Origin: Eledone cirrhosa
Lineage: Eukaryota
Length of the DNA stretch: 64,000 nt
Direction: 5' to 3'
Assembly (NCBI GenBank): GCA_964016885.1
Contig: OZ024746.1
Span: 100,378,001 to 100,442,000 of the forward strand
Shown here: in pieces, positions 1-62,842 of the stretch
Position numbering within the stretch: the stretch's first letter is position 1
Layout of the letters: each line of letters begins with the position of its first letter
Translations under genes and position numbers: made by a program
The notes under the pieces: generated by a model
The model's input: the letters and a program-made list of their open reading frames with translations, nothing else
Database searches by the model: none
Told to the model about the DNA's origin: nothing

Positions 1-3000
1 AACATTCTATCTGACATTCTAACTGACTGACATTCTATCTGACATTCTAACTGACATTCTATCTGACATTTTATCTGACATTCTATCTAACATTCTATCT
101 GACATTCTATCTGACATTCTATCTGACATTCTATCTAACATTCTATCTGACATTCTATCTGACATTCTATCTGACATTCTATCTGACATTCTATCTAACA
201 TTCTATCTAACATTCTAACGGACATTCTATCTGACATTCTATCTGACATTCTATCTGACATTCTATCTGACATTCTATCTGACATTCTATCTAACATTCT
301 AAAGGACATTCTATCTAACATTCTATCTGACATTTTATCTGACATTCTATCTAACATTCTATCTGACATTCTATCTGACATTCTATCTGACATTCTATCT
401 GATATTCTATCTGACATTCTATCTAACATTCTAACTGACATTCTATCTGACATTCTATCTGATATTCTCTCTTACATTCTAACTGACATTGTATCCAACA
501 TTCTATCTGACATTCTATCTAACATTCTATCTAACATTCTAACTGACATTCTAACTGACATTCTATCTGACATTCTATCTAACATTCTATCTAACTTTCT
601 ATCTAACATTCTATCTGACATTCTATCTAACATTCTATCTAACATTCTAACTGACATTCTAACTGACATTCTATCTGACATTCTATCTAACTTTCTATCT
701 GACATTCTAACTGACATTCTAACTGACATTCTATCTAACATTCTATCTGACATTCTATCTAACATTCTATCTGACATTCTAACTGACTGACATTCTATCT
801 GACATTCTATCTGACATTCTAACTGACATTCTATCTGACATTCTATCTAACTCTCTATCTGACATTCTATCTGTCATTCTAACTGACATTCTATCTGACA
901 TTCTAACGGACATTCTATCTAACATTCTATCTGACATTTTATCTGACATTCTATCTAACATTCTATCTGACATTCTATCTGACATTCTATCTGACATTCT
1001 ATCTGACATTCTATCTAACATTCTAACTGACATTCTATCTGATATTCTAACTGACATTCTATCTAACATTCTATCTGACAGTCAATCTAACATTCTAACT
1101 AACATTCTAACTGACATTCTATCTGACATTCTATCTGACATTCTAACTGACATTCAATCTAACATTCTATCTAACATTCTATCTGACATTCTATCTAACA
1201 TTCTATCTAACATTCTATCTAACATTCTAATGGACATTCTATTTAACATTCTATCTGACATTCTAACTGACTGACATTCTATCTGACATTCTAACTGACA
1301 TTCTATCTGACATTCTATCTAACATTCTAACTAACATTCTAACTGACATTCTCTCTGACATTCTATCTGACATTCTATCTAACATTCTATCTAACATTCT
1401 AACGGACATTCTATCTAACATTCTATCTGACATTTTATCTGACATTCTATCTAACATTCTATCTGACATTCTATCTGACATTCTATCTGACATTCTATCT
1501 AACATTCTAACTGACATTCTATCTGATATTCTAACTGACATTCTATCTGACATTCTAACTGACATTCTATCTGACATTTTATCTGACATTCTATCTAACA
1601 TTCTCTCTGACATTCTATCTGACATTCTATCTAACATTCTATCTAACATTCTAACGGACATTCTATCTAACATTCTATCTGACATTTTATCTGACATTCT
1701 ATCTAACATTCTATCTGACATTCTATCTGACATTCTATCTGACATTCTATCTAACATTCTAACTGACATTCTATCTGATATTCTAACTGACATTCTATCT
1801 AACATTCTAACTGACATTCTATCTGACATTCTATCTGATATTCTCTCTTACATTCTAACTGACATTCTATCCAACATTCTATCCAACATTCTATCTAACA
1901 TTCTATCTAACATTCTACCTGACATTCTAACTGACATTCTATCTGACATTCTATCTGACATTCTATCTTACTTTCTATCTAACATTCTATCTGACATTCT
2001 CTCTGACATTCTATCTGACATTCTAACTGACATTCTATCTAACATTCTATCTGACATTCTATCTGACATTCTATCTGACATTCTATCTGACATTCTATCT
2101 GACATTCTAACTGACATTCAAATCTGACATTCTATCTGACATTCTATCTGACATTCTATCTGACATTCTATCTGACATTCTATCTGACATTCTATCTGAC
2201 ATTCTAACTGACATTCTATCTGACATTCTATCTGACATTCTATCTAACATTCTATCTGACATTCTATCTGACATTCTAACTGACATTCTATCTAACATTC
2301 TAACTGACATTCTAGCTGACATTCTATCTAACATTCTAACTGACATTCTATCTAACATTCTAACTGACATTCTATCTGACATTCTATCTGACATTCTAAC
2401 TGACATTCAATCTAACATTCTATCTAACATTCTATCTGACATTCTATCTAACATTCTATCTAACATTCTATCTAACATTCTATTTAACATTCTATCTGAC
2501 ATTCTATTTAACATTCTATCTGACATTCTAACTGACTGACATTCTATCTGACATTCTAACTGACATTCTATCTGACATTCTATCTGACATTCTATCTGAC
2601 ATTCTATCTGACATTCTATCTAACATTCTAACTAACATTCTAACTGACATTCTCTCTGACATTCTATCTGACATTCTATCTAACATTCTAACTGACATTC
2701 TATCTGATATTCTAACTGACATTCTATCTAACATTCTATCTGACAGTCAATCTAACATTCTAACTAACATTCTAACTGACATTCTATCTGACATTCTATC
2801 TGACATTCTAACTGACATTCAATCTAACATTCTATCTAACATTCTATCTGACATTCTATCTAACATTCTATCTAACATTCTATCTAACATTCTAACGGAC
2901 ATTCTATTTAACATTCTATCTGACATTCTAACTGACTGACATTCTATCTGACATTCTAACTGACATTCTATCTGACATTCTATCTGACATTCTATCTGAT

Positions 3001-3631
3001 ATTCTATCTGACATTCTATCTAACATTCTAACTAACATTCTAACGGACATTCTATCTAACATTCTATCTGACATTTTATCTGACATTCTATCTAACATTC
3101 TATCTGACATTCTATCTGACATTCTATCTGACATTCTATCTAACATTCTAACTGACATTCTATCTGATATTCTAACTGACATTCTATCTAACATTCTAAC
3201 TGACATTCTATCTGACATTCTATCTGATATTCTCTCTTACATTCTAACTGACATTCTATCCAACATTCTATCTGACATTCTATCTAACATTCTATCTAAC
3301 ATTCTAACTGACATTCTAACTGACATTCTATCTGACATTCTATCTAACATTCTATCTAACTTTCTATCTAACATTCTATCTGACATTCTATCTAACATTC
3401 TATCTAACATTCTAACTGACATTCTAACTGACATTCTATCTGACATTCTATCTAACTTTCTATCTGACATTCTAACTGACATTCTAACTGACATTCTATC
3501 TAACATTCTATCTGACATTCTATCTAACATTCTATCTGACATTCTAACTGACTGACATTCTATCTGACATTCTATCTGACATTCTAACTGACATTCTATC
3601 TGACATTCTATCTAACTCTCTATCTGACATT
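1..3631. repeat. 12-bp satellite array (ACATTCTATCTG)n, left arm; runs off the window start
   Basis: Continuous 12-mers with recurrent variants ACATTCTAACTG and ACATTCTATCTA, plus occasional 4-bp ACTG insertions. Confidence 0.98.
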
Positions 3632-4787
3632 GGCGGCAAAAAAATACTCTGTGTCGCCAATTCGGTCCACACACTACACCTTCTTCCCCACCTACATGGG
3701 TAAAAAAACCCAGAGGATATGGATAACCACCATCACCCCAAACATAAACTACTGGTGGTTACTAACCGGTTTCCTCAATTTAGACGAGGACAACCTCATC
3801 TCAATAGGGAAGGCATCCGGCGACGCGTTCAGTGGAACGAGCCTCGAAGTTCTGACCCAAAAAAGGCCAGAACGCATCGCCCAAATCCCTGAGCGCGTCA
3901 TGCTGGATGACCGTACCCACCTCAACATTATTGTGGAGGGTAGGCGTCCCTCCTGTTACCTCTGTGGCAATAGAGGTCACCTGAGGGCTGCCTGTCCCCA
4001 ACTCACACAGAAAAAAACACTGCTACCAACACCAACACCACCCCAACTACAACAACAAAAACAACCACAACAACAACAAAAACCAACAACCCCACCACCA
4101 CCACCACAACAACAACAACAACAACAAACACGTGAAAAAATAACACAGAATACTGTCCCACCCAATCCCTCCCCACCCAAAACAAATACAAAAACACGCA
4201 CACCGCAAACACTACCAGAAAACATACCTCTCCCACCCAACAAGGAAGACGAACCTCTTTCGTCGCAAGACGAAAAAGATCCCTTCCAACAAGTAAAAAG
4301 AAAGAAGAGGAGACGCACCACAGACACACATGTTAACTTTAACCCCCCCCCCCCCCAAGAGAACACAAACTACACACAAACCACCCCTCCCTGTCACACA
4401 ACACTAACTGCTACACAAAAAAAGACCTTACAATACACATACATGAACACAGACAACAAAGAATTACGGAAAACAATTTCAGCAAACCCTTCGGTCCAAA
4501 CTGAGGGGCCAAACTTTATAACTGCTGTGGGACTACCTCATTTGAAAATGATAAAAGTCCCAATGCACTTGTACAAAACACTGAAAATAAATTTCACGGA
4601 GGACGTGGGCCCCCCCCCCCTGCGCCAAACCAATCAACCGCGTCCTCCTAAAAAATTTCACCCCCCCACCCCACCCAGACACCCACTCAACGACAAACAC
4701 CCCAACCCTACAACATACCGATGCCCCTTCACTTCCACAAACCACCACCCCACCCAACAACCCATCCCCAACCAGCATGGAAATTGA
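3632..4787 (+). CDS. Retrotransposon ORF1 (gag-like nucleic-acid-binding protein), N-terminally truncated
   Basis: IIVEGRRPSCYLCGNRGHLRAACP zinc knuckle, then a Pro/Gln/Thr-rich linker and a KRKKRRR basic patch. There is no native ATG; the TTG start spans the satellite junction. Confidence 0.85.
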
Positions 4788-4842
4788 GCGGCCCGTTTCC
4801 CGGGACGCAGAGAGGTAAGTGCCTTTTCTCTTTACCACCAAC

Positions 4843-7800
4843 ATGGCTGTGCTAAGAGTAGGGTGTCTAAATGCGCGTGGCCTGGGCTCGTCTTGGAAGC
4901 AAGCAATGCTTCTAAATGACCTCAGGTCACAATCTATAAATGTGATGGTTATCTGCGAGGCCCGGATCAGCAGCATGCGACAGCTAGCCCCCACCTTTGA
5001 CGACTTTGAGATGCACGCATCTCTCTGTCAGCCCGGAGGTGGGGGTGGGGTTGTCGTTCTGCTGCAAAAACATATGGGCCTTGCAACACAGATAGTTCAC
5101 TTGGACCCAGGAGGTCGACTGGTGGTGCTGGACCTTGGCAGTGGTGAAGGTAGAGCCCTTAGGCTGATAGCCGCATATGCCCCTTTTGGGACAGAGCGGC
5201 CCGACTTTTTCCAGCGTCTGGAGTCTTTTCTAGGGACGTCCCGTTCCCTGCTTTTAGTGGGGGATTGGAATGGTATCCTGGATGCACGTTGGGACTATGC
5301 AGGGGCATGTCCCGATAGAGAGGGGTGCAACAGCCTCAAGGGGTTACTCGGCCGATTTGACCTGGCCGATAGATTTCGACTAGATTTTCCGACGGTGCCA
5401 ACCTGGTCTTGGTCAAATCGCAGCGGATCATCTAGATCGTACCTAGATAGATTTTTAGTTAGAAATAAGGACAGGGACTTTTTAAGTTGTCCAGAAATGC
5501 TCATGGTTGGCTATTCAGACCACAAGTTGGTGACCTGCATGGTCAACCTTGATAGAACGCATAGACAGGGCCCCGGTTACTGGAAGCTCAACTTGTCCTT
5601 GCCGGCAAGTAGAGCCTACAGGAATCGGATTAGTACGTTAGTTAAGGAACGGTTGACTGGAGCGATCGTCAACAGCAGGTGGTGGGTATCTCTAAAGAGA
5701 GAGATTAGAGTAGTCTCGATTGAATTTAGTAAGGTTCTAGCTGCGGATAGGAATAGGAAGGAAAGGGAGCTAATAGATAGAGTAGAAGAGGCAATTAGAA
5801 GCGGCGACGTGGCCAGAGTGCTAGCGTCGAGAACGGCTTTGAGCCAGTTTTTCGACGCGAAGCACGAAGGCTGCGTTGTCCGAAGTAAAATACGTGCTCT
5901 AGGGAACGAGGGGGCCAAAGCTGTTAGCTGGGCCCGCGTGACAGAGGCCAACAGTGGAACTAAATCCACCATCCGGTCTTTGCGAGACCTGGATGGACGG
6001 GCGATTCTTGAGCCTAAGCAGATGTGTGAGGCCTTTCAAAGGCACTTTGCCCGACTGTTCGGGAGGGGCGGGGAGCCGGTTGGAAACGTGGACTTCGGTC
6101 CATACCTCGACGGCCTGCCGCGCCTCTCGGACAGGGAGGCGAAGTCTTGCGAGGAGCCGATTTCGGCCGCTGAGATAGAGGACGTGCTGGGCCAATGCGG
6201 CAAACGCAAATCCCCGGGTCTCGATGGTCTTCCTTACGAATTATATCTAGCTATGCCGGACTTGTTCCCCGATCTCCTCGAGGCGGTCTACTGCAACTGG
6301 CAACAGAACGGGAGAATTCCCTGTACTGTGACCAAGGGCGTAGTCACGCTAGTGAGGAAGGACGAGAACAAGGGGGACGAAATAAGTAACTTCAGGCCCA
6401 TAACTCTGCTAAATACAGAGTTACAGATTTTGGCCAAGGTGCTAGCAAAGAGGTTGGCGCTTGTCGTGGGCAACCTGGTGGGAGATGCGCAGACATGCGC
6501 TATCCCGTCCAGGTCCATCCATGACAACCTCCACCTCATGCGATACATCATAGAGAGGGTTGGGAACGAACCCGGCTTTGGTGGGGCTCTGATCAACTTG
6601 GATCAATCTAAGGCGTTCGATAGGGTCGACCATGGTTACCTGGATGCGGTGCTAGCGGCGGCAGGCTTCGGACCCGTTTTCAGGGGCTGGATCACTGCTA
6701 TGCACAGCAGCCGCACCTGCTCTAGGGTCAAGGTGAACGGCTACCTCTCGGAGCCGTTCAAAATCGCGCGGTCCATCCGACAAGGGTGCCCTCTCTCCTC
6801 CCTTCTGTATGTGTTGACTCTCGAGCCACTACTGCGGAAGTTGGAGTTGTTGCAGGGCATCCCTTTGGAACCGGGATTGCGGAAAGCGGTGTCAGCCTAC
6901 GCCGATGATGTGACAGTAATGGTGTCGACGGCCTCCGAAATCGAGGCGGTCGGCACCTTACTGCAGGAGTACGAAAAGTTCACAGGGGCTAAGCTGAACC
7001 GGGACAAGTCGATCGGTTTGCAACTCGGCACGTGGAGGGGCAGACCGATGCCCTCCGATGGCGTCGTCGGACGCTGGACGGAGGGCCCGGTGAAGTTGCT
7101 CGGGGTCTGGTTCGGACCGGACCTCCAGGTGGAGAAAAACTGGGCGGAGGTTACGAACAGGGTGTTTGCACTGACCCAGAAGTGGGCCAGTTGCAAACTA
7201 TCCCTGAAAGGTCGGGCGGAGGTGGCGAACACTTATATAGCGTCCGTCATCTACTACCGCCTGACCGTAGTGCCCTGCCCAAGGGAAACCCTCACCAAGA
7301 TGGAGCGCGCGCTCTTCCAATTCCTTTGGAAGGGGCGGGCTCCTATGGTGAGGAGATCCATCTGCTGTCAACACCCTTCGAAAGGAGGGCTGGGGATGCC
7401 GTGGCTAATGATGCGTAAACACGCATTAAGGCTACGGCACCTCTACGTATTCCTCACCGGACAACCGGTGTGGGCCTCGTTTGTGAGACGAACCTTTCCC
7501 AGACTCGTCTCACTCACCGAGCTGCAATCCTGGGTCAAGCAAAGACCGAGAAAACTGGGCGCCTGGCACACTGAGTGTGCCCAGGCGCTCACCGCCTTCT
7601 GGCAGGCGGATCCGGTTATCAGTGGAGACTCCACCGCAACATTCTATAGAGGGCTGGTACGCAGCAGGTGCGACGACGCCCTCGGAGAAGCCCTAGACAT
7701 GGAGGAGGACGAACTGGCCAGCCTGTTCGGTAGGACATTCAGCCCGGGACCTATGGACAACTTCCAGAAGTCCCTGGCCTGGCAGTGCTACCGAGGGGCT

Positions 7801-8280
7801 TTACCCGTTCGAGAAAGGCTCTACAGACACGGGCGCCCGGGTAGGGACCCCGCCAAAAAGATCTGTCCCAGATGCGTGTGCGACGAGGAAACCGTTGCAC
7901 ACGCATTGGTACACTGCTCGGGCGTAGCCGATCTGTGGGGCTATGTCGAACAACTGCTGTCAAGGGTGGGACCGATCCGGTTGACCACCGAGTCTATTGT
8001 AATGATCAAGCCGCCTCCCCCCTTCAAAGATGAAGCAGAGGCGGTGTTTCTGTGCGTAATAGCCATGGCGAAAGAGGTTGTATGGTGGACGCGTCTGAAA
8101 GGACTGAGGTCAGGCACCTTTCTCTCTGGCCAACAACTGGTCCGTTTCTTCCGATATCATTTCGGAAGAAGGATCAGGATGGAGAGAGAGGTGCTGCACC
8201 CCAGTCGTTTTTATGAAAGGTGGGTGAAAGTGGCGAGAATGGCCCGTGTGAATGGGCCTTCTCTTTACATAAGCCTGTAG
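4843..8280 (+). CDS. Retrotransposon ORF2: AP endonuclease + reverse transcriptase + C-terminal zinc finger, 1145 aa, uninterrupted
   Basis: APE motifs LNARGL, ICE, YAP, GDWN, YLDRF, SDH. RT motifs PGLDG, NFRPITLLN, LDQSKAFDRV, RQGCPLS, YADD. C-terminal CPRC...HALVHC. First ATG is at 4843. Confidence 0.96.
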   Translation: MAVLRVGCLNARGLGSSWKQAMLLNDLRSQSINVMVICEARISSMRQLAPTFDDFEMHASLCQPGGGGGVVVLLQKHMGLATQIVHLDPGGRLVVLDLGSGEGRALRLIAAYAPFGTERPDFFQRLESFLGTSRSLLLVGDWNGILDARWDYAGACPDREGCNSLKGLLGRFDLADRFRLDFPTVPTWSWSNRSGSSRSYLDRFLVRNKDRDFLSCPEMLMVGYSDHKLVTCMVNLDRTHRQGPGYWKLNLSLPASRAYRNRISTLVKERLTGAIVNSRWWVSLKREIRVVSIEFSKVLAADRNRKERELIDRVEEAIRSGDVARVLASRTALSQFFDAKHEGCVVRSKIRALGNEGAKAVSWARVTEANSGTKSTIRSLRDLDGRAILEPKQMCEAFQRHFARLFGRGGEPVGNVDFGPYLDGLPRLSDREAKSCEEPISAAEIEDVLGQCGKRKSPGLDGLPYELYLAMPDLFPDLLEAVYCNWQQNGRIPCTVTKGVVTLVRKDENKGDEISNFRPITLLNTELQILAKVLAKRLALVVGNLVGDAQTCAIPSRSIHDNLHLMRYIIERVGNEPGFGGALINLDQSKAFDRVDHGYLDAVLAAAGFGPVFRGWITAMHSSRTCSRVKVNGYLSEPFKIARSIRQGCPLSSLLYVLTLEPLLRKLELLQGIPLEPGLRKAVSAYADDVTVMVSTASEIEAVGTLLQEYEKFTGAKLNRDKSIGLQLGTWRGRPMPSDGVVGRWTEGPVKLLGVWFGPDLQVEKNWAEVTNRVFALTQKWASCKLSLKGRAEVANTYIASVIYYRLTVVPCPRETLTKMERALFQFLWKGRAPMVRRSICCQHPSKGGLGMPWLMMRKHALRLRHLYVFLTGQPVWASFVRRTFPRLVSLTELQSWVKQRPRKLGAWHTECAQALTAFWQADPVISGDSTATFYRGLVRSRCDDALGEALDMEEDELASLFGRTFSPGPMDNFQKSLAWQCYRGALPVRERLYRHGRPGRDPAKKICPRCVCDEETVAHALVHCSGVADLWGYVEQLLSRVGPIRLTTESIVMIKPPPPFKDEAEAVFLCVIAMAKEVVWWTRLKGLRSGTFLSGQQLVRFFRYHFGRRIRMEREVLHPSRFYERWVKVARMARVNGPSLYISL

Positions 8281-8544
8281 GTGGAAAAGAGGAAGGAACG
8301 AGGGAGCACCCCCTCTCTGTGCTCCTGAGGAAAAGGGTTGCACACTTTTTTCGGGGGTGTGTGCGACCCCCCAAGGCGCCTCCTCTCTATTGAGGATTTT
8401 GTTAAAAATTTTATTTTTTGTTATATCTTATTTTATTTTTATATTTTGTTATTGCCTCCTCCTTATTGAGGACGCCTTTTTGTGTAAACTCCCCCCTTTG
8501 TACTTGTCACACTTTTGATGCCCTAGTGGCAAATAAAAGAAACT

Positions 8545-11500
8545 TATCTGACATTCTATCTGTCATTCTAACTGACATTCTATCTGACATTCTATCTGAC
8601 ATTCTATCTGACATTCTATCTGACATTCTATCTGACATTCTATCTGACATTCTATCTAACATTCTATCTGACATTCTAACTGACATTCTATCTGACATTC
8701 TATCTGACATTCTATCTGACATTCTATCTAACATTCTAACTGACATTCTAACTGACATTCTATCTGACATTCTATCTAACATTCTATCTAACTTTCTATC
8801 TAACATTCTCTCTGACATTCTATCTGACATTCTATCTAACATTCTAACTGACATTCTATCTGATATTCTAACTGACATTCTATCTAACATTCTATCTGAC
8901 AGTCAATCTAACATTCTAACTAACATTCTAACTGACATTCTATCTGACATTCTATCTGACATTCTAACTGACATTCAATCTAACATTCTATCTAACATTC
9001 TATCTGACATTCTATCTAACATTCTATCTAACATTCTATCTAACATTCTATTTAACATTCTATCTGACATTCTAACTGACTGACATTCTATCTGACATTC
9101 TAACTGACATTCTATCTGACATTTTATCTGACATTCTATCTAACATTCTATCTGACATTCTATTTGACATTCTATCTGACATTCTATCTAACATTCTATC
9201 TGACATTCTATCTGACATTCTATCTGACATTCTATCTGACATTCTATCTAACATTCTATCTAACATTCTAACGGACATTCTATCTGACATTCTATCTGAC
9301 ATTCTATCTGACATTCTATCTAACATTCTAACGGACATTCTATCTAACATTCTATCTGACATTTTATCTGACATTCTATCTAACATTCTATCTGACATTC
9401 TATCTGACATTCTATCTGACATTCTATCTGATATTCTAACTGACATTCTATCTAACATTCCAACTGGCATTCTATCTGACATTCTATCTGATATTCTCTC
9501 TTACATTCTAACTGACATTCTATCCAACATTCTATCTGACATTCTATCTAACATTCTATCTAACATTCTAACTGACATTCTAACTGACATTCTATCTGAC
9601 ATTCTATCTAACATTCTATCTAACTTTCTATCTAACATTCTATCTGACATTCTATCTAACATTCTATCTAACATTCTAACTGACATTCTAACTGACATTC
9701 TATCTGACATTCTATCTAACTTTCTATCTGACATTCTAACTGACATTCTAACTGACATTCTATCTAACATTCTATCTGACATTCTATCTAACATTCTATC
9801 TGACATTCTAACTGACTGACATTCTATCTGACATTCTATCTGACATTCTAACTGACATTCTATCTGACTTTCTATCTAACTCTCTATCTGACATTCTATC
9901 TGTCATTCTAACTGACATTCTATCTGACATTCTAACGGACATTCTATCTAACATTCTATCTGACATTTTATCTGACATTCTATCTAACATTCTATCTGAC
10001 ATTCTATCTGACATTCTATCTGACATTCTATCTGACATTCTATCTAACATTCTAACTGACATTCTATCTGATATTCTAACTGACATTCTATCTAACATTC
10101 TATCTGACAGTCAATCTAACATTCTAACTAACATTCTAACTGACATTCTAACTGACATTCTATCTGACATTCTATCTAACATTCTATCTAACTTTCTATC
10201 TAACATTCTATCTGACATTCTATCTAACATTCTATCTAACATTCTAACTGACATTCTAACTGACATTCTATCTGACATTCTATCTAACTTTCTATCTGAC
10301 ATTCTAACTGACATTCTAACTGACATTCTATCTAACATTCTATCTGACATTCTATCTAACATTCTACCTGACATTCTAACTGACTGACATTCTATCTGAC
10401 ATTCTATCTGACATTCTAACTGACATTCTAACTGACATTCTATCTGACATTCTATCTGACATTCTATCTGACATGCTATCTGACATTCTATCTGACATTC
10501 TATCTGACATTCTATCTGACATTCTATCTGACATTCTATCTAACATTCTATCTGACATTCTAACTGACATTCTATCTGACATTCTATCTGACATTCTATC
10601 TGACATTCTATCTAACATTCTAACTGACATTCTAACTGACATTCTATCTGACATTCTATCTAACATTCTATCTAACTTTCTATCTAACATTCTATCTAAC
10701 ATTCTATCTAACATTCTAACTGACATTCTAACTGACATTCTATCTGACATTCTATCTGACATTCTATCTGACATTCTATCTGACATTCTATCTAACATTC
10801 TAACTAACATTCTAACTGACATTCTCTCTGACATTCTATCTGACATTCTATCTAACATTCTATCTAACATTCTAACGGACATTCTATCTAACATTCTATC
10901 TGACATTTTATCTGACATTCTATCTAACATTCTATCTGACATTCTATCTGACATTCTATCTGACATTCTATCTGACATTCTATCTGACATTCTAACTGAC
11001 ATTCTATCTGATATTCTAACTGACATTCTATCTAACATTCTAACTGACATTCTATCTGACATTCTATCTGATATTCTCTCTTACATTCTAACTGACATTC
11101 TATCCGACATTCTATCTGACATTCTATCTAACATTCTATCTAACATTCTAACTGACATTCTAACTGACATTCTATCTGACATTCTATCTAACATTCTATC
11201 TAACTTTCTATCTAACATTCTATCTGACATTCTATCTAACATTCTATCTAACATTCTAACTAACATTCTAACTGACATTCTATCTGACATTCTATCTAAC
11301 TTTCTATCTGACATTCTAACTGACATTCTAACTGACATTCTATCTAACATTCTATCTGACATTCTATCTAACATTCTATCTAACATTCTATCTGACATTC
11401 TAAGTGACTGACATTCTATCTGACATTCTATCTGACATTCTAACTGACATTCTAACTGACATTCTATCTGACATTCTATCTAACTTTCTATCTGACATTC

Positions 11501-14500
11501 TAACTGACATTCTAACTGACATTCTATCTAACATTCTATCTGACATTCTATCTAACATTCTATCTAACATTCTATCTGACATTCTAACTGACTGACATTC
11601 TATCTGACATTCTATCTGACATTCTAACTGACATTCTATCTGACATTCTATCTAACTCTCTATCTGACATTCTATCTGTCATTCTAACTGACATTCTATC
11701 TGACATTCTATCTGACATTCTATCTGACATTCTATCTGACATTCTATCTGACATTCTATCTGACATTCTATCTAACATTCTATCTGACATTCTAACTGAC
11801 ATTCTATCTGACATTCTATCTGACATTCTATCTGACATTCTATCTAACATTCTAATTGACATTCTAACTGACATTCTATCTGACATTCTATCTAACATTC
11901 TATCTAACTTTCTAACTGACATTCTAACTGACATTCTATCTGACATTCTATCTAACTTTCTATCTGACATTCTAACTGACATTCTATCTGACATTCTATC
12001 TAACATTCTATCTGACATTCTAACTGACATTCAATCTAACATTCTATCTGACATTCTAACTGACTGACATTCTATCTGACATTCTATCTGACATTCTAAC
12101 TGACATTCTATCTGACATTCTATCTAACTCTATATCTGACATTCTATCTGACATTCTATCTGATATTCAAACTGACATTCTATCTAACATTCTATCTGAC
12201 AGTCAATCTAACATTCTATCTAACATTCTAAAGGACATTCTATCTAACATTCTATCTGACATTTTATCTGACATTCTATCTAACATTCTATCTGACATTC
12301 TATCTGACATTCTATCTGACATTCTATCTGACATTCTATCTGACATTCTAACTGACATTCTATCTGATATTCTAACTGACATTCTATCTAACATTCTAAC
12401 TGACATTCTATCTGACATTCTATCTGATATTCTCTCTTACATTCTAACTGACATTCTATCTGACATTCTATCTGACATTCTATCTAACATTCTATCTAAC
12501 ATTCTAACTGACATTCTAACTGACATTCTATCTGACATTCTATCTGACATTCTATCTAACTTTCTATCTAACATTCTATCTGACATTCTATCTAACATTC
12601 TATCTAACATTCTAACTAACATGCTAACTGACATTCTATCTGACATTCTATCTAACTTTCTATCTGACATTCTAACTGACATTCTAACTGACATTCTATC
12701 TAACATTCTATCTGACATTCTATCTAACATTCTATCTAACATTCTATCTGACATTCTAAGTGACTGACATTCTATCTGACATTCTATCTGACATTCTAAC
12801 TGACATTCTAACTGACATTCTATCTGACATTCTATCTAACTTTCTATCTGACATTCTAACTGACATTCTAACTGACATTCTATCTAACATTCTATCTGAC
12901 ATTCTATCTAACATTCTATCTAACATTCTATCTGACATTCTAACTGACTGACATTCTATCTGACATTCTATCTGACATTCTAACTGACATTCTATCTGAC
13001 ATTCTATCTAACTCTCTATCTGACATTCTATCTGTCATTCTAACTGACATTCTATCTGACATTCTATCTGACATTCTATCTGACATTCTATCTGACATTC
13101 TATCTGACATTCTATCTAACATTCTATCTGACATTCTAACTGACATTCTATCTGACATTCTATCTGACATTCTATCTGACATTCTATCTAACATTCTAAT
13201 TGACATTCTAACTGACATTCTATCTGACATTCTATCTAACATTCTATCTAACTTTCTATCTAACATTCTATCTGACATTCTATCTAACATTCTATCTAAC
13301 ATTCTAACTGACATTCTAACTGACATTCTATCTGACATTCTATCTAACTTTCTATCTGACATTCTAACTGACATTCTATCTGACATTCTATCTAACATTC
13401 TATCTGACATTCTAACTGACATTCTATCTAACATTCTATCTGACATTCTAACTGACATTCTATCTGACATTCTATCTAACTCTATATCTGACATTCTATC
13501 TGACATTCTATCTGATATTCTAACTGACATTCTATCTAACATTCTATCTGACAGTCAATCTAACATTCTATCTAACATTCTAACGGACATTCTATCTAAC
13601 ATTCTATCTGACATTTTATCTGACATTCTATCTAACATTCTATCTGACATTCTATCTGACATTCTATCTGACATTCTATCTGACATTCTATCTGACATTC
13701 TATCTGACATTCTAACTGACATTCTATCTGATATTCTAACTGACATTCTATCTAACATTCTAACTGACATTCTATCTGACATTCTATCTGATATTCTCTG
13801 TTACATTCTAACTGACATTCTATCCGACATTCTATCTGACATTCTATCTAACATTCTATCTAACATTCTAACTGACATTCTAACTGACATTCTATCTGAC
13901 ATTCTATCTAACATTCTATCTAACTTTCTATCTAACACTCTATCTGACATTCTATCTAACATTCTATCTAACATTCTAACTGACATTCTAACTGACATTC
14001 TATCTGACATTCTATCTAACTTTCTATCTGACATTCTAACTGACATTCTAACTGACATTCTATCTAACATTCTATCTGACATTCTATCTAACATTCTATC
14101 TAACATTCTATCTGACATTCTAACTGACTGACATTCTATCTGACATTCTATCTGACATTCTAACTGACATTCTAACTGACATTCTATCTGACATTCTATC
14201 TAACTTTCTATCTGACATTCTAACTGACATTCTAACTGACATTCTATCTAACATTCTATCTGACATTCTATCTAACATTCTATCTAACATTCTATCTGAC
14301 ATTCTAACTGACTGACATTCTATCTGACATTCTATCTGACATTCTAACTGACATTCTATCTGACATTCTATCTAACTCTCTATCTGACATTCTATCTGTC
14401 ATTCTAACTGACATTCTATCTGACATTCTATCTGACATTCTATCTGACATTCTATCTGACATTCTATCTAACATTCTATCTGACATTCTAACTGACATTC

Positions 14501-15091
14501 TATCTGACATTCTATCTGACATTCTATCTGACATTCTATCTAACATTCTAACTGACATTCTAACTGACATTCTATCTGACATTCTATCTAACATTCTATC
14601 TAACTTTCTATCTAACATTCTATCTGACATTCTATCTAACATTCTATCTAACATTCTAACTGACATTCTAACTGACATTCTATCTGACATTCTATCTAAC
14701 TTTCTATCTGACATTCTAGCTGACATTCTAACTGACATTCTATCTAACATTCTATCTGACATTCTAACTGACATTCTATCTAACATTCTATCTGACATTC
14801 TAACTGACTGACATTCTATCTGACATTCTATCTGACATTCTAACTGATATTCTATCTGACATTCTATCTAACTCTCTATCTGACATTCTATCTGACATTC
14901 TAACTGACATTCTATCTGACATTCTATCTGACATTCTATCTGACATTCTATCTAACATTCTATCTAACTTTCTATCTGACATTCTAACTGACATTCTATC
15001 TGACATTCTAACTGACATTCTATCTAACATTCTATCTGACATTCTAACTGACATTCTATCTGACATTCTATCTGACATCTGACATTCTAAC
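8545..15091. repeat. 12-bp satellite array, right arm
   Basis: Same monomer and variants as the left arm; ends abruptly at about 15091. Confidence 0.98.
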
Positions 15092-18129: not shown

Positions 18130-20250
18130 GGTCAATACTGGAAACAGCTCTGCAGAAAATGTCGAAAAGGAAATCACCAGGCCCAGACCTCATAACAGGA
18201 TACTGGCTGAAGAATTTCACCTTCTATCGGCAAGATCTCATACGGCTGTTTAGAGAAACCATCAAAGGGACACAAGAACTGCCCCAATGGTTATCAACTG
18301 CCACTACTCTCCCTATTCCACAAAATAGCCAAACCACCTTTGCTAAAAATTACCGCCCAATAGCCTGCCACAACATCATGTATAAATTATACACTGGGTG
18401 CCTTAATCTGTTCTTACAGGATCACTGTGCCACCAACAAAATTATAACACCTGAGCAAGCTGGTGGAAGCGTGGGGCTGCGTAGATCACCTATTAACAAA
18501 TAGAATGATACAGGAAAAAACAGCAAAGAATCGCAGAAACATGACTATGGTGTGGCTGGACTATCAGAAGGCTTTTGATAGTATACCTCATGGGTGGATT
18601 ATTAAGGCTTTACAGTTAGCCAATGTCCCACAAATACTAATAGCTGCTGTTGAACGCCAGACCAAGAACTGGTACATCAATTGATCCTTAGGAGTGAGAA
18701 GGAGAAAATTAAGACTGATACAATACACTACCAGAAAGGTATCTTTCAGGGTGATAGCTTATCAGTGCTGCTCTTCGTCCTCTCACTAAACCCACTGTCA
18801 TACCTGCTCACAAAATAAAGTGGTCATGGAAATGAGTCCAGAAATATCTCCCATCTTTTCTTTGTTGATGACTTGAAGTTGTATGGGCCAAATATCAACT
18901 ATATTAAAACACAATTGGACCTCATTACACAATTTTCTGCAGACATCAGAATGACATTTGGTGAGTCTAAATGTACATATTTGACAGTAAAACGTGGAAG
19001 AGATGTGCCCTCCTCTAGAAATCTAGAGATGAACGGCCTGACAATACAACCTCTACAGTCAGGTGACAACTACAGATATCTTGGACAGGATGAGAATGTC
19101 AGATATGATGGACCCATAAATAAGGAAAGAACCAGAACTGAATAGAGAGTAAAGAAAATATGGGCATCAGAACTGTCAGCGTACAACAAATACATTGCCC
19201 ACAATACTTATGCTGTGCCAATCCTAATGCCAACATTTGGCCTGCTGAACTGGTCATTTCAAGAACAAAGTGAGATGGATGTAAGAACTCGCAAGCTTCT
19301 CAGTGTTACTGGAAACTTTAACATCAATGGTGATGTGGATAGGCTATACTTCTCATGCAATGAAGGTGGCCGGGGTCTAAAATCCATATTAACATCATAG
19401 GAGACTCGGATAGTAACACTGAAGCAACATCTTCAGCAGAATAAAAAGGTCAGCAACCATCTTGCCCAGGTTTATGAGCATGAAGGTAATATTATCATTA
19501 GGCTAGCCACTGATCTGGAAGAGAGATATGGAATAAGGCCTGATATAAATCTCTCTCCCAGGGAAATTGGAAGATCCTATTCTATGTTCAAACAAGATAA
19601 AAAAATGGACCAATTTACAGAGAAAGTTGTGCATGGGTACCTGAGACCATGGAGGGGATAAATCATTCAAAAAGCCTGTTCCGACAAATTTATGACATCC
19701 CACATTGAAGGATATCTCTATGCAATACAGGAACAAGAAATCCCTACGCAAAAGTGGAGGGCCATCAGTCGACAATAAATGTAGGCTTTGTAAAACAAAG
19801 ATCGAAGATGTTAGCCACATTGTTGCGAACTGCGAAAGAATGTCGTCTCGCTACTACCTCCCTATGAGACACGATGTGATAGCTAGAACAAAATTAAAAA
19901 CAAATGAGGAGGAATATGTTGAGATAGGTGGCAGTAAAGAATACTGGTGGAACCTGAAAATAAAACCTGCCACCAAATTAAAGCACAACCAGCCTGATAT
20001 TGCTGTTTGGGACCACACATTGAAAACGTGTTCTGTTGTGGAGATCAGCTGCCCACTAGATTTCAAAGTTGTCGGAAAAATACAGGAGAAGCAGGACATC
20101 TACAGACCATTGATGAGAAGTTTGCAGATCCAGTATCCAAGATACACCTTCAGCTTCATAACCATCATTATTGGAGCTACAGGTTGTATACCAGCTTACT
20201 TGGACCAAAGTATAACTGAATTTGGATTTGTGGACAAAGACTTTCTGGAA
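18130..20250 (+). mobile_element. Degraded R4/Dong-clade non-LTR element (RT + CCHC + restriction-like endonuclease)
   Basis: KSPGPDLITGYWLK, NYRPIAC, WLDYQKAFDSIPH, GIFQGDSLS, HLFFVDDLKLY, CRLC..HIVANC, RHD, QPDIAV..VVEISCP. Several stops and frameshifts. Confidence 0.82.
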
Positions 20251-21218
20251 TGAGATTGAGGAAATCTTCATTGACGACAGACGGTTGATTCAAAAGATCA
20301 TCAAAGTGCTCTCGCCACCTTCGTAGAATTCCTTGTGGGTCACGAAGAAGTTCTTTGCCATCCTTGCTGCAAAGCGGTGTCACCAGAGAAGAATACGGTC
20401 CATAAACCTCACGCAAGAGACTGTACTTTGTGTTATTGGAATCTGACGCAGTTTGTATCTCACCAGCCTTCTCACTCCACCACTGATCCTTCATCTGAGA
20501 AAGACTCCGCCTAACACGTGATTTTACATCCTTGAGTTCCTCATGCAACGTATTCCTCTCCTGTGGTTTTGCCGTCAAGTAGCGTGACAGAGCACGCCTC
20601 TTATCAGCCAACAAGTCTTCTATATGTACATCATTCTCATTAAACCAGTCCTGATGTTTTCTCTGCACCAATCCCAGAACACGCCTGCCTACATCATAAA
20701 CCGACTTTTTAAGGATCGGCCAATCCTCACCAAGATCTGCAGCCTGCATCTCTTCTTCCAATGTCCTCTTCACATTTTTATCCTTAAGACGAGCAGCATT
20801 CAATCTTTTTGGGCAGGGCAACACCAGGAGCCCGGATTTTACGTTTAGTGATTAGTTTCACTTTTGCGCGTACCAGGTGGTGGTCTGTCCAGCACTCAGC
20901 TCCACGAAGAGCACGAACACACTGCACATCCTGTCTGTCACGCATCCTGACTAGGACGTAGTCCAAAAGATGCCATTCCTTAGATGCAGGATGCATCCAT
21001 GTGGTCTTGAATTTGTTCTTTTGTTGGAACATGGTGTTGGTAACACACAGATCCAGCTCCTCACACATCTGCAGCAGGAGCATACCATTGCTGTTACACT
21101 TTCCCACCCCATGTCTTCCGATTACATTCCATGTGTTAAAATCCCTACCCACTCTAGCATTAAAGTCACCAAGCACGATGACTTTGTCTGCCTGAGGGAT
21201 ATTTCTTAAAACACCTTT
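20251..21218 (-). mobile_element. RTE-clade LINE fragment (APE domain and linker)
   Basis: VLGDFNARVG, TWMHPASKEWHLLDYVLVR, TDHHLV, KHQDWFNEN, RWREHFDDLLN; one frameshift. Confidence 0.87.
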
Positions 21219-37434: not shown

Positions 37435-40400
37435 ATCATCATCACGGGTCCTATTCAGCACAGCATCTCTCCACTTGTCACGGCCCTTCGTCATCTCCAC
37501 CGTGAGCTTCAGCGATCTGAGGTCTGCTCTCACCACCTCCGCCCATGTTTTTCGTGGTCTTCCTTCAACTGGCATTTCCTGGCACTTCTTCACTAATCGG
37601 TCATCCTCCATGCACATCACATGTCCATACCACCTCAGTCTCCTCTCTCGCACACTACATTCTATCCCTCTCAGACACAGTTTCTCTATCAACACATTTA
37701 TGCTGGGTCATTCACGCACATTGACATTGCACATCCAACGGAGCATGCTTGCCTCATTTCTCTCCAGCCGTCGCATATCCTTTGCAGTTGCTGCCCATGT
37801 CTCACTACCATGCATCATATAACCGGCCTTTCGTATGCAGGGAGAAACCTTTCTTTGTCAGTAGAGGAAGCATCCCCCTAAACTTCTTCCAGCCCGTCCT
37901 TATTCTAGATACTACGGCCTCGGAACACCCCACCTCTCATGCTAATCTGATCACCTAGGTACCGGAAGCTATCAACCACTTCTATAGCACCCACCTGCAT
38001 TTGAAAAATGTGTCTATCAATGAGACTTCTACTGTATTTCTCCCTACCTGTTAGTTTGCCTGCTATCCCACTACATCTCTTGTGTACCCAAGATCTGCAT
38101 GGTGTACATTTTATAGAATTTATGCCAGTTCCTTTTCTGCATATCGAACATGGCCATTTCCCTGGTGGAATCAGAGTTTTGTCCTCTTTTCTACTCATCA
38201 ACACTTTTGTCTTAGCTAGGTTCACTCTCAGTCCTCTTGCTTCCAACTGCTGTTTCCATAGCCAGAATTTATTCTCTAGCTCCTCTACTGATTCTGCTAT
38301 AAGAACCAGATCGTCAGCATAGAGAAGTTCCCATGGACAGCCAGTCTTAAACTCCTGTTATGGCTTGGAGGACTATAATGAACAAGAGCGGGCTGAGGAC
38401 CGAACCCTGATGTACTCCTACTTGTATCTGGAATTCCTCACTAAACTCCATTCCTACCCTCACTTTACTGACAGCACCTCTGTACAAAGCTTGCACTGTC
38501 CTCACAAGCCATTCATCAACACCCAGCTTCCTTAGGGACCACCAGATGACAGATCGGGGTACCCTATCAAAGGCCTTCTCTAGGTCAACAAAAGCTAAGT
38601 ATAGTGATTTATTCTTCTCTAAGAATCTCTCTTGTAATTGTCTAAGAAGAGGGCATCCGTTGTACTTTTCCCAGGCACAAAACCAAACTGCATCTCATCT
38701 AGTTTGACCCTTTCTCTAATTAGTTGCGTTAATATCCTTTCTCCCACTTTCATGACCTGATCCATCAGTTTTATGCCCCTATAATTGCTCCTCTCCAGAG
38801 CATCCCCTTTACCTTTGTAGCAATTTATGAGAATAATGCTGCACCAGTCTTTGGGTATGACACCACTATATATAGCCCGATTGATGATGCGTGCAACCAG
38901 TTTAGTGCCTACGTCCCCTGATGCCTTCAGCATCTCAGCAACTATCCCCGAGGGTCCAGCAGCCTTACCATTTTTCATTTCCTTAATTGCCTCTTGGACC
39001 CTATAGTCAATCTCAATAGCTGGTCCCTCTGTCGGATCTACTGGAGGTAATTTCTCTCTCTCCCATTCGTTCTCCACATTCATCAGTCTCTCATAATGAC
39101 ATTTCCAGGCCTCCTTTTTCTGATCATTCATGACGCTAAGTACACCGGCATCATTCCGGACACATTTATCTCCAACAACATCCTGATTTGCACTGATACA
39201 CTGCCTTGCAATGCAGAACCCTGCACATCTCTGATCTTCCCGTCGCAGAACATTGGCAAACCTCCTACTCTCAGCTTCTCTGCGTGCTAAGTACACCTGA
39301 CGTCTAGCTTCTCTCTTATCGGCTGTATATCCTTCTCTACACCCACCATTTTTCCAAGCATTCCATGCTAGTCTTTTGTCTCTAATGGCCCTATCTTCCA
39401 TGCTGTTCCACCACCAGGTCACTCTCTGTCTGGTTGGAGCTCTGCTCCCGCCACAAGTTTCTTCAGTAGCCTGCAGTAAGTTGTCACGTAAGAAATTCCA
39501 GTTATCATCTATGTCATATGACTCTAAATCATCTTTTTTGTCATACACATCTTGAAGGGCTTTCCTAAATTTGTATTTTAGTGAAAGGTCTTTTAGCTTC
39601 CAGACCTTTCTTCTCCACACCTTCATGTATGTCTCATTCTTTCTCTTGCTTACTGAGATATCACTAATGACTAACCTATGCTGTGGGGTACATTCTTCCC
39701 CGTGGTATGCCTTGGTATTTGACACCATCTGTCTGTCTTTCTGCCTAACTAGCAAGAAGTCAATCTGGCTTATGTGCTCGCCTGATTTGTAGGTTATTAG
39801 GTGGTTGGCAGGTTTCTGGAAGTTAGTGTTGCAAATAGTTAGTGCACTTGCATCACAAAATTCAAGAAGCCTCACTCCTTCATTTCTTGAGCCATAACCG
39901 TGCCCACCATGTACCCCAGTGTAACCATCCTGGAGCTGTCCAACATGACCATTGAAGTCCCCTGCTAGCATAACGATGTCTCCGTCCTCTGTTATTGCAG
40001 CTATTTGTAAAACTTGCTCGTAAAAGCAGTCTTTCTCTTCTTTACCTAGGCCTGCCTGGGAAGCATAGGCAGAGATGATTGTCAGTAGTTTCCTGCCTAC
40101 AACTAATCTCAGCTTAATTATTCTATTACTAACTCGAACTACCTCTATTGTCTTATCGATCTACCTCTCAGCCAGTAAAATGCCTACCCCACCCCCCTAA
40201 CCCATCATTATTAGCCACCCAGAAAAGCTTATAAGTAAGATGTTTGCCTGTGATTAGTCTCACAGAGGCACCTCTCCATTTCACCTCTTGCTCACAGCAC
40301 ACATCCACATACCTTCTCTCCAGCATCTCCACTATTTCACCAGATCTACCTGTTAGAGTGCCAACATTAAGTGTGGCAACTCCGAGATGCGACGTCTTCA

Positions 40401-41741: not shown

Positions 41742-42792
41742 GAGTCATAGGCAAAGTATGGCCCATTGGCCCGTTTGGCTTTCTGAATGGCATGCCTAGT
41801 TTCAAAAATGCCTTGAATTTGTTAGTAGTGTGGCCCACTTTATGATGAGTCACATCCTATGTGGTCCACCTTATGATGGACCACATCCTATGTGGTCCAC
41901 CTTATGATGAGTCACATCCTATGTGGTCCACCTTATGTTGATCCACATCCTATGTGGTCCACCTTATGTTGATCCACATCCTATGTGGTCCACCTTATGT
42001 TGATCCACATCCTATGTGGTCCACCTTATGATGGACCACATCCTATGTGGTCCACCTTATGATGAGTCACATCCTATGTGGTCCACCTTATGTTGATCCA
42101 CATCCTATGTGGTCCACCTTATGATGAGTCACATCCTATGTGGTCCACCTTATGATGAGTCACATCCTATGTGGTCCACCTTATGATGAGTCACATCCTA
42201 TGTGGTCCACTTTATGATGAACCACATCCTATGTGGTCCACCTTATGATGAGTCACATCCTATGTGGTCCACTTTATGATGAGTCACATCCTATGTGGTC
42301 CACTTTATGATGAACCACATCCTATGTGGTCCACCTTATGATGAGTCACATCCTATGTGGTCCACCTTATGATGAACCACATCCTATGTGGTCCACCTTA
42401 TGATGAACCACATCCTATGTGGTCCACCTTATGATGAGTCACATCCTATGTGGTCCACCTTATGATGAGTCACATCCTATGTGGTCCACCTTATGATGAG
42501 TCACATCCTATGTGGTCCACCTAATGATGAGTCACATCCTATGTGGTCCACCTTATGATGAGTCACATCCTATGTGGTCCACCTTATGATGAGCCACATC
42601 CTATGTGGTCCACCTTATGATGAGCCACATCCTATGTGGTCCACCTAATGATGAGTCACATCCTATGTGGTCCACCTTATGATGAGTCACATCCTATGTG
42701 GTCCACCTTATGATGAGCCACATCCTATGTGGTCCACCTTATGATGAGCCACATCCTATGTGGCCCAGCTTGAACAAGTTTGCCCATGTCTG
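41742..42792. mobile_element. hAT-type MITE with an internally expanded 31-bp minisatellite (~41830-42765, about 30 units)
   Basis: TIRs GAGTCATAGGCAAAGT / AGTTTGCCCATGTCTG, TSD CTTTATAT/CTTTATAA, unit CCTTATGATGAGTCACATCCTATGTGGTCCA. Confidence 0.75.
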
Positions 42793-50395: not shown

Positions 50396-50442
50396 CAATT
50401 TTTTAAAACTGCTGATATAAACTGCAAGTTTATTTTGTATAT

Positions 50443-61664: not shown

Positions 61665-62842
61665 GTGTAAACATGCGCTGAGGTTACGACCATCTTCTTA
61701 ACAGAAAAGACGCATTTTCCCCCCAGCTCGTCCCCTAAACGGAGCTGCAGTCCTAGTCAAGCAGAGACCGAAGGTGAAACCTTGGAAACTGAAATATCTT
61801 TAGGTGTTCACAGCCCTCTGCCAATCAGGCAGTATAGTCGGTGGAAACTGCAACTTGGCTTTCTATAGAGGATTAGAGGCAGATGAAAGTGACAACATTC
61901 TTGAGGAAACTCTAGGCATTGATGAAAATCAACTAGTCACTCTTTTCAGTAGAACTTTCAGTCCAGGGCCCATGGATGATTTCCAGAAATCCCTGGCATG
62001 GTAATGGCACTGAGGAGCTTTGCCAATTCGAGATAAACTCTACAGGCATGGAAGTGCCATCAGCCGGGCCTGTCCGAGATGTTCACAGGGCAATGAAACC
62101 ATCCTGCATGCAATCGTCCAATGTCAGAGCATTGCTGATTTGTGGGTTTATGTTGAACACCTGCTGTCGCATGTGGGACAAATCTGGCTATCAGCTGAGT
62201 CCATTTTGAAGATTGTCCTGCCACCGTCCTTTAGTCAGGAAAGGCAGCCTGTTTTTATCTGTCTTGTGGCCATGGCAAATGAGGTACAATAGTGGACATG
62301 CTTGAAAGGTTTGAAAACAAACACTTTCCTCTTAGGTGAAGCCCTGATTCTCCAGGTTTCACTTGAAGAGGAAAGTCAGGGTGGAGAAGGGGGTGCTGCC
62401 TTCAAAACAATTTGTTGAAAGATGAGTGAGAAAGGCAAGCATAACCTGAGTGAATGGGCCAGCTCTGAGTATGAGCCTGAAGATTTGAGGACAACTGGGA
62501 CAGGGCACTTAACCAAGAGATCAGGGTACTTGTGGTTTTAGGGGGGGGGGCATGAGTGACTCGCAAATGCCTCCTCCGTATTGAGCAAAACCCTGTTTTA
62601 ATTTTGATTATCTTATCTTTCCCTTTTAACATTGTTAAAATTTGTTTACATGCAAAACCCACACTAATACACACAGTTTTCGTCTTGTGTCGTCATCATC
62701 ATCACCGTTATACATCCATTCTTCCACGCTATCATGGGTTAAACGGGTTGTCCTGTTATGAGCAATGCCAGGTCAGGTGACCATGTCTTGCTCATACAGA
62801 ACTGAATTTCCTAATGTAAACCCTTTGTGGTCAATAAAGAAA
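61663..62842 (+). pseudogene. Degraded Tx1-family ORF2 right piece and 3' UTR
   Basis: KHALRL, FSRTFSPGPMDDFQKSLAW, ACPRC..HAIVQC match the intact ORF2. Ends CCCTTTGTGGTCAATAAAGAAA+(TTA)n, with a SINE-tail insert at about 62690-62800. Confidence 0.88.

What the first reader, a model, noticed from the sequence alone, without database searches (positions are those of the whole stretch)
3621..8555. Young Tx1-clade retrotransposon inserted in a 12-bp satellite, with an exactly readable target site: candidate satellite-targeting element
Seen: this is the only intact TE ORF in the window (1145 aa, no stops), and it sits inside a roughly 10-kb satellite. Two rare adjacent monomers give the empty site AACTCTC-TATCTGACATT-CTATCTGTCATT, present uninterrupted at about 849, 9878, 11654, 13010 and 14374. 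The filled site is AACTCTC-TATCTGACATT-[4913 bp]-TATCTGACATT-CTATCTGTCATT, so the TSD is a perfect 11 bp. Established: the Tx1 clade includes many sequence-specific families (U2 snRNA, tRNA spacers, microsatellites). Inference: this family may target this satellite or TATC-type repeats and may still be active. One insertion cannot show specificity, and a diverged relative in this window lies outside the satellite.
Basis: partly seen in the sequence, partly recalled or inferred. Interest (0 to 1): 0.72.

Follow-up and report, generated by a model that had tools for sequence, protein, structure and literature searches.

The report
LINE retrotransposon targeting TATC/GATA microsatellites
This is one front-truncated copy of a young jumping-gene family, in what is likely an octopod genome, whose copies almost always sit right before the short motif TATC or TATA, mostly in GATA-type repeats, likely because the element cuts and starts copying there; the 12-bp satellite is only a chance carrier of that motif.

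Summary
The insertion is real: 4,913 bp (3632-8544), intact 1,145-aa APE-RT ORF2, duplication TATCTGACATT, and an empty site just upstream of the window identical for 150 bp on both sides. Corrections: the copy is 5'-truncated (a full-length copy is about 5.8 kb; about 226 ORF1 codons are missing), the duplication is 8-11 bp, and the satellite is one array of about 19.4 kb.

Satellite targeting is refuted: of 359 exact 3' ends genome-wide, only this one abuts the satellite. In 24 junctions with readable duplications the motif pre-existed in the target; 0 of 108 carry a poly(A) tail. A sister family shares the target (2,661 of 2,916). The diverged relative at 61.7-62.8 kb belongs to an (ATT)n-flanked lineage.

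So this is a microsatellite-targeting L1/Tx1-group LINE that works like Kibi and Koshi, with a repeat unit I did not find in print. Tx1 membership is supported by scores but unresolved in my tree. The scan already noted this on other DNA of this genome (e1-10312530 and others).

The parts
1..3620 (+). 12-bp satellite (ACATTCTATCTG), left arm; continues about 9.2-9.4 kb upstream of the window
3621..3631 (+). 5' copy of the target-site duplication TATCTGACATT; the last ATT is also microhomology to the element
3632..8544 (+). 5'-truncated L1/Tx1-group LINE, 4,913 bp; corresponds to about 902-5802 of a natural full-length copy (L031), 99.4% identical
3633..4787 (+). ORF1 remnant (384 codons in frame, natural start missing) with a CCHC zinc knuckle and a Pro/Gln/Thr-rich tail; ORF1 is 616-624 aa in several full-length copies
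   Evidence: (zf-CCHC E 0.0019, below the curated cut-off)
4843..8280 (+). ORF2, 1,145 aa: APE endonuclease (LNARG, E38, GDWN, YLDR, SDH), reverse transcriptase (YADD), C-terminal CCHC
8281..8544 (+). 3' UTR with AATAAA at 8532-8537, ending AGAAACT; no poly(A); modest predicted folding (z -2.2)
8545..8555 (+). 3' copy of the target-site duplication, starting with the family motif TATCT
8556..15078 (+). 12-bp satellite, right arm
61665..62841 (+). Diverged, 5'-truncated relative (46% aa to the ORF2 C-terminus) flanked by (ATT)n on both sides; about 80% nt identity to copies of an (ATT)n-flanked lineage

Best explanation
This is a 5'-truncated copy of a young L1/Tx1-group LINE whose copies end directly before TATC or TATA (351 of 359), a motif that pre-exists in the target, likely because the element's endonuclease nicks the GATA strand there and reverse transcription starts from that nick; the satellite was likely hit only because it carries over a thousand TATCT motifs. 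Shown: the junction motif; its presence in both copies of 24 readable duplications; the absence of poly(A); enrichment in (TATC)n runs; 27 of 101 copies lying just downstream of another Tx1-like 3' end. Inferred from the general TPRT model: a bottom-strand nick at 5'-AGATA/G-3' (between GATA units), second-strand cleavage mostly 8-22 nt away, and 5' joining by short microhomology (ATT here). Inferred and untested: transcripts run past the terminus into the donor's UAUC flank (AATAAA lies only 7 nt before the end), so the freed ...AGATA-3' primer pairs with the RNA and sets the exact start, in place of the poly(A)/T-tract pairing of human L1. Each insertion leaves TATC on both sides, so targets persist and copies likely stack.
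For: Genome-wide counts: 359 exact 28-nt termini; 307 followed by TATC; 44 by TAT[AGT], all listed as TATA; 1 by the satellite unit. Local background for TATC plus TATA is about 1.3% per position, so about 76-fold enrichment (background from 49 kb of this window only). In 108 junctions (99 of the first 100 position-ordered termini, 8 others and the window copy), position +5 is T in 105 and 48 flanks begin with (TATC)3 or more. 39 of 108 begin with (TATC)4, against 4.4e-5 per position genome-wide. All 24 non-repetitive duplications start with TAT on both sides of the element (19 TATC, 5 TATA); the base before is C 15, T 6, G 2, A 1. No A-run follows 0 of 108 termini, and no added tail is seen at unique-sequence sites. 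A sister family with a different terminus shows TATC/TATA after 2,661 of 2,916 ends. A subfamily whose APE is only 87-88% identical uses the same motif. Expected satellite hits under a plain TATCT model are 0.05 for this subfamily and 0.49 with the sister family (rough). Precedent: Kibi, Koshi and crocodilian Tx1 families (PMC4494074); primer-RNA pairing in L1 (PMC3649969).
Against: 31 of 108 junctions gave no duplication of 7 nt or more (7 of these because their 5' half belongs to another subfamily), and 53 lie in pure repeats where a duplication cannot be read. Two near-full-length copies (L048, L188) have a long 3' (TATC)n but only 4-6 matching bases on the 5' side, which an added tail would also explain. 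The loop that helps set L1 endonuclease specificity is nearly the same in the TATC and ATT lineages (NRSGSSRS against NRIGSSRS), so the endonuclease basis of the difference is not evident from sequence. No nicking, RNA or population data were obtained. Survival bias (insertions in repeats being tolerated) could inflate the microsatellite share, though not the base-exact motif.
Confidence: 0.82

Rival explanations
1. The family specifically targets the 12-bp satellite.
For: One clean insertion with an exact duplication at a TATCT unit of the satellite.
Against: 1 satellite-flanked terminus genome-wide against 359 exact termini. The satellite is essentially one locus. About 0.05-0.5 hits are expected from the short motif alone.
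Confidence: 0.02
2. The element inserts with little preference and brings its own (TATC)n tail, as L2/CR1-type LINEs with repeat tails do (recalled); the flanking microsatellites are products, not targets.
For: L048 and L188 have long 3' runs with almost no 5' run. Full-length copies often show a 5' (TATC)n run that is missing on the 3' side (8 of 11 against 8 of 47 truncated), so the element may carry repeat at its 5' end.
Against: 24 readable duplications begin with TAT on the 5' side too, so the motif was in the target. 44 termini are followed by TATA with no TATC. 35 of 101 have TATC runs of 12 nt or more on both sides. No extra tail is seen at unique sites.
Confidence: 0.06
3. Target choice is set mainly by RNA-DNA pairing: a rather unspecific endonuclease nicks widely, and only nicks whose 3' end pairs with read-through UAUC in the RNA are extended. 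The target would then be inherited from the donor's flank.
For: No poly(A) at 0 of 108 junctions, and AATAAA only 7 nt from the end. The hairpin loop is nearly identical between the TATC and ATT lineages. In L1, primer complementarity over the last 4-10 nt governs priming (PMC3649969 passages).
Against: Many sites match (TATC)n for only 3-5 nt. The APE domains of the two lineages differ at about 40% of positions, leaving room for protein-based readout. The base upstream of the duplication, which no primer pairing can read, is C or T in 21 of 24 (partly repeat context). PMC4494074 states that target choice is mainly set by the endonuclease.
Confidence: 0.1

Closest known systems
Kibi (TC)n and Koshi (TTC)n, teleost Tx1-clade LINEs; crocodilian Tx1 group on (TTCC)n/(TTTC)n (PMC4494074 passages and section 15; PMC3812793 passages)
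   Same: APE-type two-ORF LINE of the L1/Tx1 group that inserts preferentially in a microsatellite; passes that paper's criterion (more than 20% of flanks of one type).
   Different: The repeat unit is (TATC)n/(GATA)n, with (TA)n as a secondary target. The host is likely an octopod. ORF2 is only 34-36% identical in the RT region to fish Tx1-like proteins. The core motif is short (TATCT/TATAT) and is also used outside repeats.
Human L1 (PDB 8UW3 and others; PMC1950540, PMC3649969 passages)
   Same: ORF2 architecture APE-RT-CCHC (170 bits), variable-length duplications, 5' truncation with microhomology, short motif at the nick.
   Different: No poly(A) tail; motif TATC/TATA rather than AAAA; CCHC knuckle in ORF1; much stronger concentration in one repeat.
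L1-Tx1 families of Octopus vulgaris (PMC13282606, passages: 13 recently active families, 421 insertions)
   Same: Recently active L1-Tx1 LINEs are reported in an octopus; the closest named protein here is from Argonauta hians (67%).
   Different: The passages I saw give no target preference. I could not compare sequences with those families.
Waldo (ACAY), Mino (AC) and Dong (TAA) microsatellite-targeting non-LTR elements (PMC3812793 passage)
   Same: Same lifestyle: microsatellites as insertion targets.
   Different: Other clades and other repeat units.

Membership tests
L1/Tx1 group of APE-type LINEs | ORF2 with N-terminal APE endonuclease, RT and C-terminal CCHC, no RNase H | tested here: met
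   Pfam Exo_endo_phos, RVT_1, zf-RVT and no RNase H hit; best solved relative is L1 ORF2p, 170 bits against 70 for R2
L1/Tx1 group of APE-type LINEs | Separate upstream ORF1 | tested here: met
   ORF1 of 500-624 aa plus intact ORF2 in 14 of 26 copies reaching the ORF1 start
L1/Tx1 group of APE-type LINEs | Variable target-site duplications and 5' truncation | tested here: met
   24 readable duplications, mostly 8-22 bp; 78 of 101 resolved copies truncated
Tx1 clade | ORF2 closer to Tx1 than to L1 | tested here: met
   294-326 bits to four proteins that NCBI names YTX2/TX1 against 170 bits to human L1; the names are homology labels and the two scores come from separate searches
Tx1 clade | RT phylogeny groups it with Tx1 families | tested here: inconclusive
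   The 40-row RT tree gives a strongly supported 9-row clade with the Argonauta protein, but its link to the vertebrate YTX2 clade is unresolved; no vertebrate L1 and no Repbase Tx1 reference in the tree
Tx1 clade | Gag-like CCHC knuckle in ORF1 (feature recalled) | tested here: met
   CYLCGNRGHLRAAC; zf-CCHC E 0.0019, 18.7 bits, below the cut-off of 20.8
Microsatellite-specific Tx1 families (Kibi/Koshi type) | More than 20% of flanks are one repeat type (criterion of PMC4494074) | tested here: met
   48 of 108 3' flanks start with (TATC)3 or more; 54 of 101 have a run of 16 nt or more on at least one side
Microsatellite-specific Tx1 families (Kibi/Koshi type) | Descent from the Kibi/Koshi lineage | not testable with these tools
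   No labelled Kibi or Koshi sequence was available from a tool
Microsatellite-specific Tx1 families (Kibi/Koshi type) | Endonuclease nicks the target sequence specifically | not testable with these tools
   Needs a biochemical assay
Satellite-specific Tx1 | Copies enriched in the satellite | tested here: not met
   1 satellite-flanked terminus genome-wide against 359

The most novel reading that the evidence does not exclude
These poly(A)-less LINEs pick their target largely through their own RNA. Read-through into the flanking repeat supplies the UAUC that pairs with the nicked GATA strand, and full-length copies also carry (TATC)n at their 5' end, so the element seeds and inherits its own landing pads. 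A sister lineage with an almost identical endonuclease loop has switched to (ATT)n, giving a natural pair for separating RNA-guided from protein-guided target choice.
Probability: 0.2. Interest if true: 0.65.

Novelty: new member of a known kind. Interest (0 to 1): 0.36.

Why it matters
Microsatellite targeting by Tx1-group LINEs is known, and a review calls its mechanism not well understood (PMC3812793 passage). This genome offers hundreds of near-identical copies with base-exact junctions, which define the likely cut site (AGATA/G). It also holds related lineages (RT about 76% identical) that use different repeats, TATC against ATT. That makes the endonuclease-versus-RNA-pairing question testable by domain and tail swaps. 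The single insertion in this window is an ordinary off-repeat hit; its value is one unambiguous junction.

Tried and rejected
Satellite targeting: rejected. Templated (TATC)n tail as the general rule: rejected by the readable duplications; the skip search inside repeat flanks was too noisy to interpret.

Metagenome scan with an 18-protein alignment: 80 loci, best segments 22-37% identical; the four that reach the C-terminus showed no TATC in the 3' stretch printed; uninformative. Sequencing runs: no RNA holder listed. Contigs of four runs laid on the 5' junction and four runs on the 3' part: no listed piece bridges the 5' junction or spans either stretch, which proves nothing for short contigs in repeats; the junctions are therefore not read-validated. 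One search did show two further truncation points with TATC-type loose ends. The RT tree did not resolve the clade. The 3' UTR fold is only modestly below shuffles (z -2.2); not used.

Literature searches that found no report of a (TATC)n/(GATA)n-targeting Tx1, judged from listings: Tx1, microsatellite, target specificity; octopus, Tx1; TATC, GATA, non-LTR; Tx1, mollusc, Repbase; cephalopod, GATA, Tx1; Tx1, ATCT: 0 papers. Not seen: Repbase, Kojima and Fujiwara 2004, figure 3 and the supplements of PMC4494074, whose legend lists more targets including 'Sat'. The target may already be recorded there. PMC1074724 and PMC85248 are not held.
Full report
Observation. The window shows a 4,913-bp insert at 3632-8544 between two copies of TATCTGACATT, inside a 12-bp satellite. 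The empty site occurs five times in the window and three times upstream. The one at position -515 matches the filled site for 150 of 150 nt on each side, so the pre-insertion state is certain. ORF2 is 1,145 aa with APE, RT and zinc-binding domains and is the only long intact TE frame. The satellite is longer than stated, about 19.4 kb, and is essentially confined to this locus: 420 of 424 genome-wide dimer matches.

The copy is truncated. All 29 other loci fetched with the first 399 bp continue upstream in shared element sequence. A natural full-length copy (L031) is 5,802 bp and begins after a (TATC)n run; the window copy starts at about its position 902. The 5' UTR and about 226 ORF1 codons are missing, so this copy likely cannot mobilise itself (inference). 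The last three bases of the 5' duplication also match the element at the break, so the duplication is 8-11 bp.

The family is young. 43 copies spanning ORF2 and the 3' UTR are a median 99.35% identical to this one (best 99.73%). 29 of 44 copies examined over the ORF2 start keep a frame of 1,140 aa or more (this count includes the window copy and two frames fused to ORF1). 14 of 26 that reach the ORF1 start keep both long ORFs. Current activity is not shown.

Target, genome-wide. The exact 28-nt terminus occurs 359 times. TATC follows in 307 and TATA in 44; the satellite unit follows once, here (a looser pattern that also admits related termini). A rough local background puts the enrichment near 76-fold. 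Under a plain TATCT model the satellite's 1,121 motifs predict 0.05 insertions of this subfamily and 0.49 with the sister family, so one hit needs no satellite preference.

Target or tail? I examined 108 junctions: 99 of the first 100 position-ordered termini, 8 more, and the window copy. The 3' flank reads TAT(C/A)T in nearly all (position counts T106, A108, T107, C90/A18, T105). 48 start with (TATC)3 or more, 11 with (TATC)2, 11 with (TA)5 or more, 35 with TATC or TATA in other sequence, and 3 with something else. An automatic rule (7 nt or more, not periodic) gave 24 readable duplications, all starting TAT on both sides of the element, for example TATATTTCA, TATCTAGATAAAT and TATCTTGCCTTGGCTTG. 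A few are doubtful (two short, one inside a minisatellite). 53 lie in pure repeat and 31 gave under 7 nt, 7 of them because their 5' half belongs to another subfamily. No terminus is followed by an A-run (0 of 108), and unique-sequence sites show no added bases. The motif is therefore part of the target. Dropping the 7 unresolved loci, 35 of 101 have TATC runs of 12 nt or more on both sides, and 27 of 101 lie within 400 nt downstream of another Tx1-like 3' end by a loose pattern. Against this reading: L048 and L188 have long 3' runs and only 4-6 matching 5' bases. A further pattern: where the 3' run is under 12 nt, a 5' run of 12 nt or more is present in 8 of 11 full-length but 8 of 47 truncated copies (Fisher p 0.0007). 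This is post hoc, and one case in each group comes from a single T-to-C change. It suggests that full-length RNAs bring (TATC)n at their 5' end.

Relatives in the genome. A sister family (mostly 77-87% aa over the ORF2 C-terminus) has 2,916 exact termini, 2,661 followed by TATC or TATA. A recombinant subfamily has an 87-88% identical APE joined to a 99% identical RT and 3' end and uses the same motif (six copies). The diverged relative at 61665-62841 sits in (ATT)n on both sides. A terminus pattern made from it and a similar end matches 10,345 places; 26 of 30 fetched are followed by ATTATT and none by TATCT. Seven ORF2s read from 11 fetched ATT-lineage regions are 58-60% identical to the query in APE (one frameshifted copy 45%) and 74-77% in RT. 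The hairpin loop differs little (NRSGSSRS against NRIGSSRS). In L1, grafting that loop alters nicking but does not transfer specificity in a modular way (PMC1950540, passages).

Classification. Nearest proteins are an unnamed one (70%) and one from Argonauta hians (67%), so the host is likely an octopod (inference). Scores are 294-326 bits to four YTX2/TX1-named vertebrate proteins against 170 to human L1. The RT tree does not resolve the link to the vertebrate Tx1-like clade and lacks a vertebrate L1. L1/Tx1 group is firm; Tx1 clade is likely.

Mechanism. Most likely target-primed reverse transcription from a nick on the GATA strand at 5'-AGATA/G-3' (inferred from the junctions and the general model). 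AATAAA lies 7 nt before the terminus. Cleavage normally falls 10-30 nt after that signal (recalled), which would place UAUC from the donor's flank in the RNA, able to pair with the primer. In L1 such pairing over the last 4-10 nt governs priming (PMC3649969, passages). Read-through pairing in R1Bm and SART1 is recalled only; I could not open those papers. The relative weight of endonuclease and pairing is untested.

What is known. Tx1-group families that target microsatellites are described: Kibi (TC)n, Koshi (TTC)n and crocodilian (TTCC)n/(TTTC)n (PMC4494074, passages and section 15; PMC3812793, passages). Recently active L1-Tx1 families are reported in Octopus vulgaris, with no target data in the passages seen (PMC13282606). 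Six searches showed no (TATC)n/(GATA)n-targeting Tx1 in their listings, but Repbase and the figure and supplements of PMC4494074 were not visible. Earlier unreviewed notes of this scan describe the same GATA-targeting family and the ATT sister lineage on other pieces of this genome; I had reached both readings before opening them (notes).

Verdict. New member of a known kind; interest 0.36.

Noticed in passing
window 61665-62841 (+): 5'-truncated Tx1-like relative flanked by (ATT)n on both sides; member of a lineage with 10,345 terminus matches, 26 of 30 sampled followed by ATTATT.
   Followed up: yes
L036, L040, L049, L186, L200, L213: Recombinant subfamily: different 5' part and an 87-88% identical APE joined to a 99% identical RT and 3' end.
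   Followed up: partly
L032, L036, L058, L172, L183, L218, L223 (5' junctions): Full-length copies with a 5' (TATC)n run not mirrored on the 3' side, suggesting repeat carried in with the 5' end of the RNA.
   Followed up: partly
L036, L044, L165, L180, L205: Other copies sit in unrelated minisatellites whose units contain TATC or TATA, which shows that any motif-bearing tandem repeat can be hit.
   Followed up: partly
window 1-15078 and G000:C6:100368600-100378000: The 12-bp satellite is a single array of about 19.4 kb with irregular higher-order repeats, about 2 Mb from the end of its contig.
   Followed up: partly
window 58028-58237 (+): Short remnant 53% identical to ORF2 residues 779-853.
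   Followed up: no
window 38619-40160 (-): 513-aa endonuclease/RT fragment of another LINE (Exo_endo_phos_2, weak RVT_1); looks RTE-like (recalled, untested).
   Followed up: no
window 19696-20253 (+): 185-aa frame with CCHC, RHD and PDI motifs resembling a restriction-like endonuclease of R4/Dong-type elements (recalled, untested).
   Followed up: no
window 50442-56088 and 41829-42771: Further tandem arrays: mixed 68/50-bp units at 95-100% unit identity, and a 31-bp unit in 30 copies.
   Followed up: no
window 6000-8544, sequencing runs: Runs under eleven coded organism labels hold 0.2 or more of the sampled words; two laid runs of other labels show short pieces with few differences. Close relatives or mixed samples; not resolved.
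   Followed up: partly
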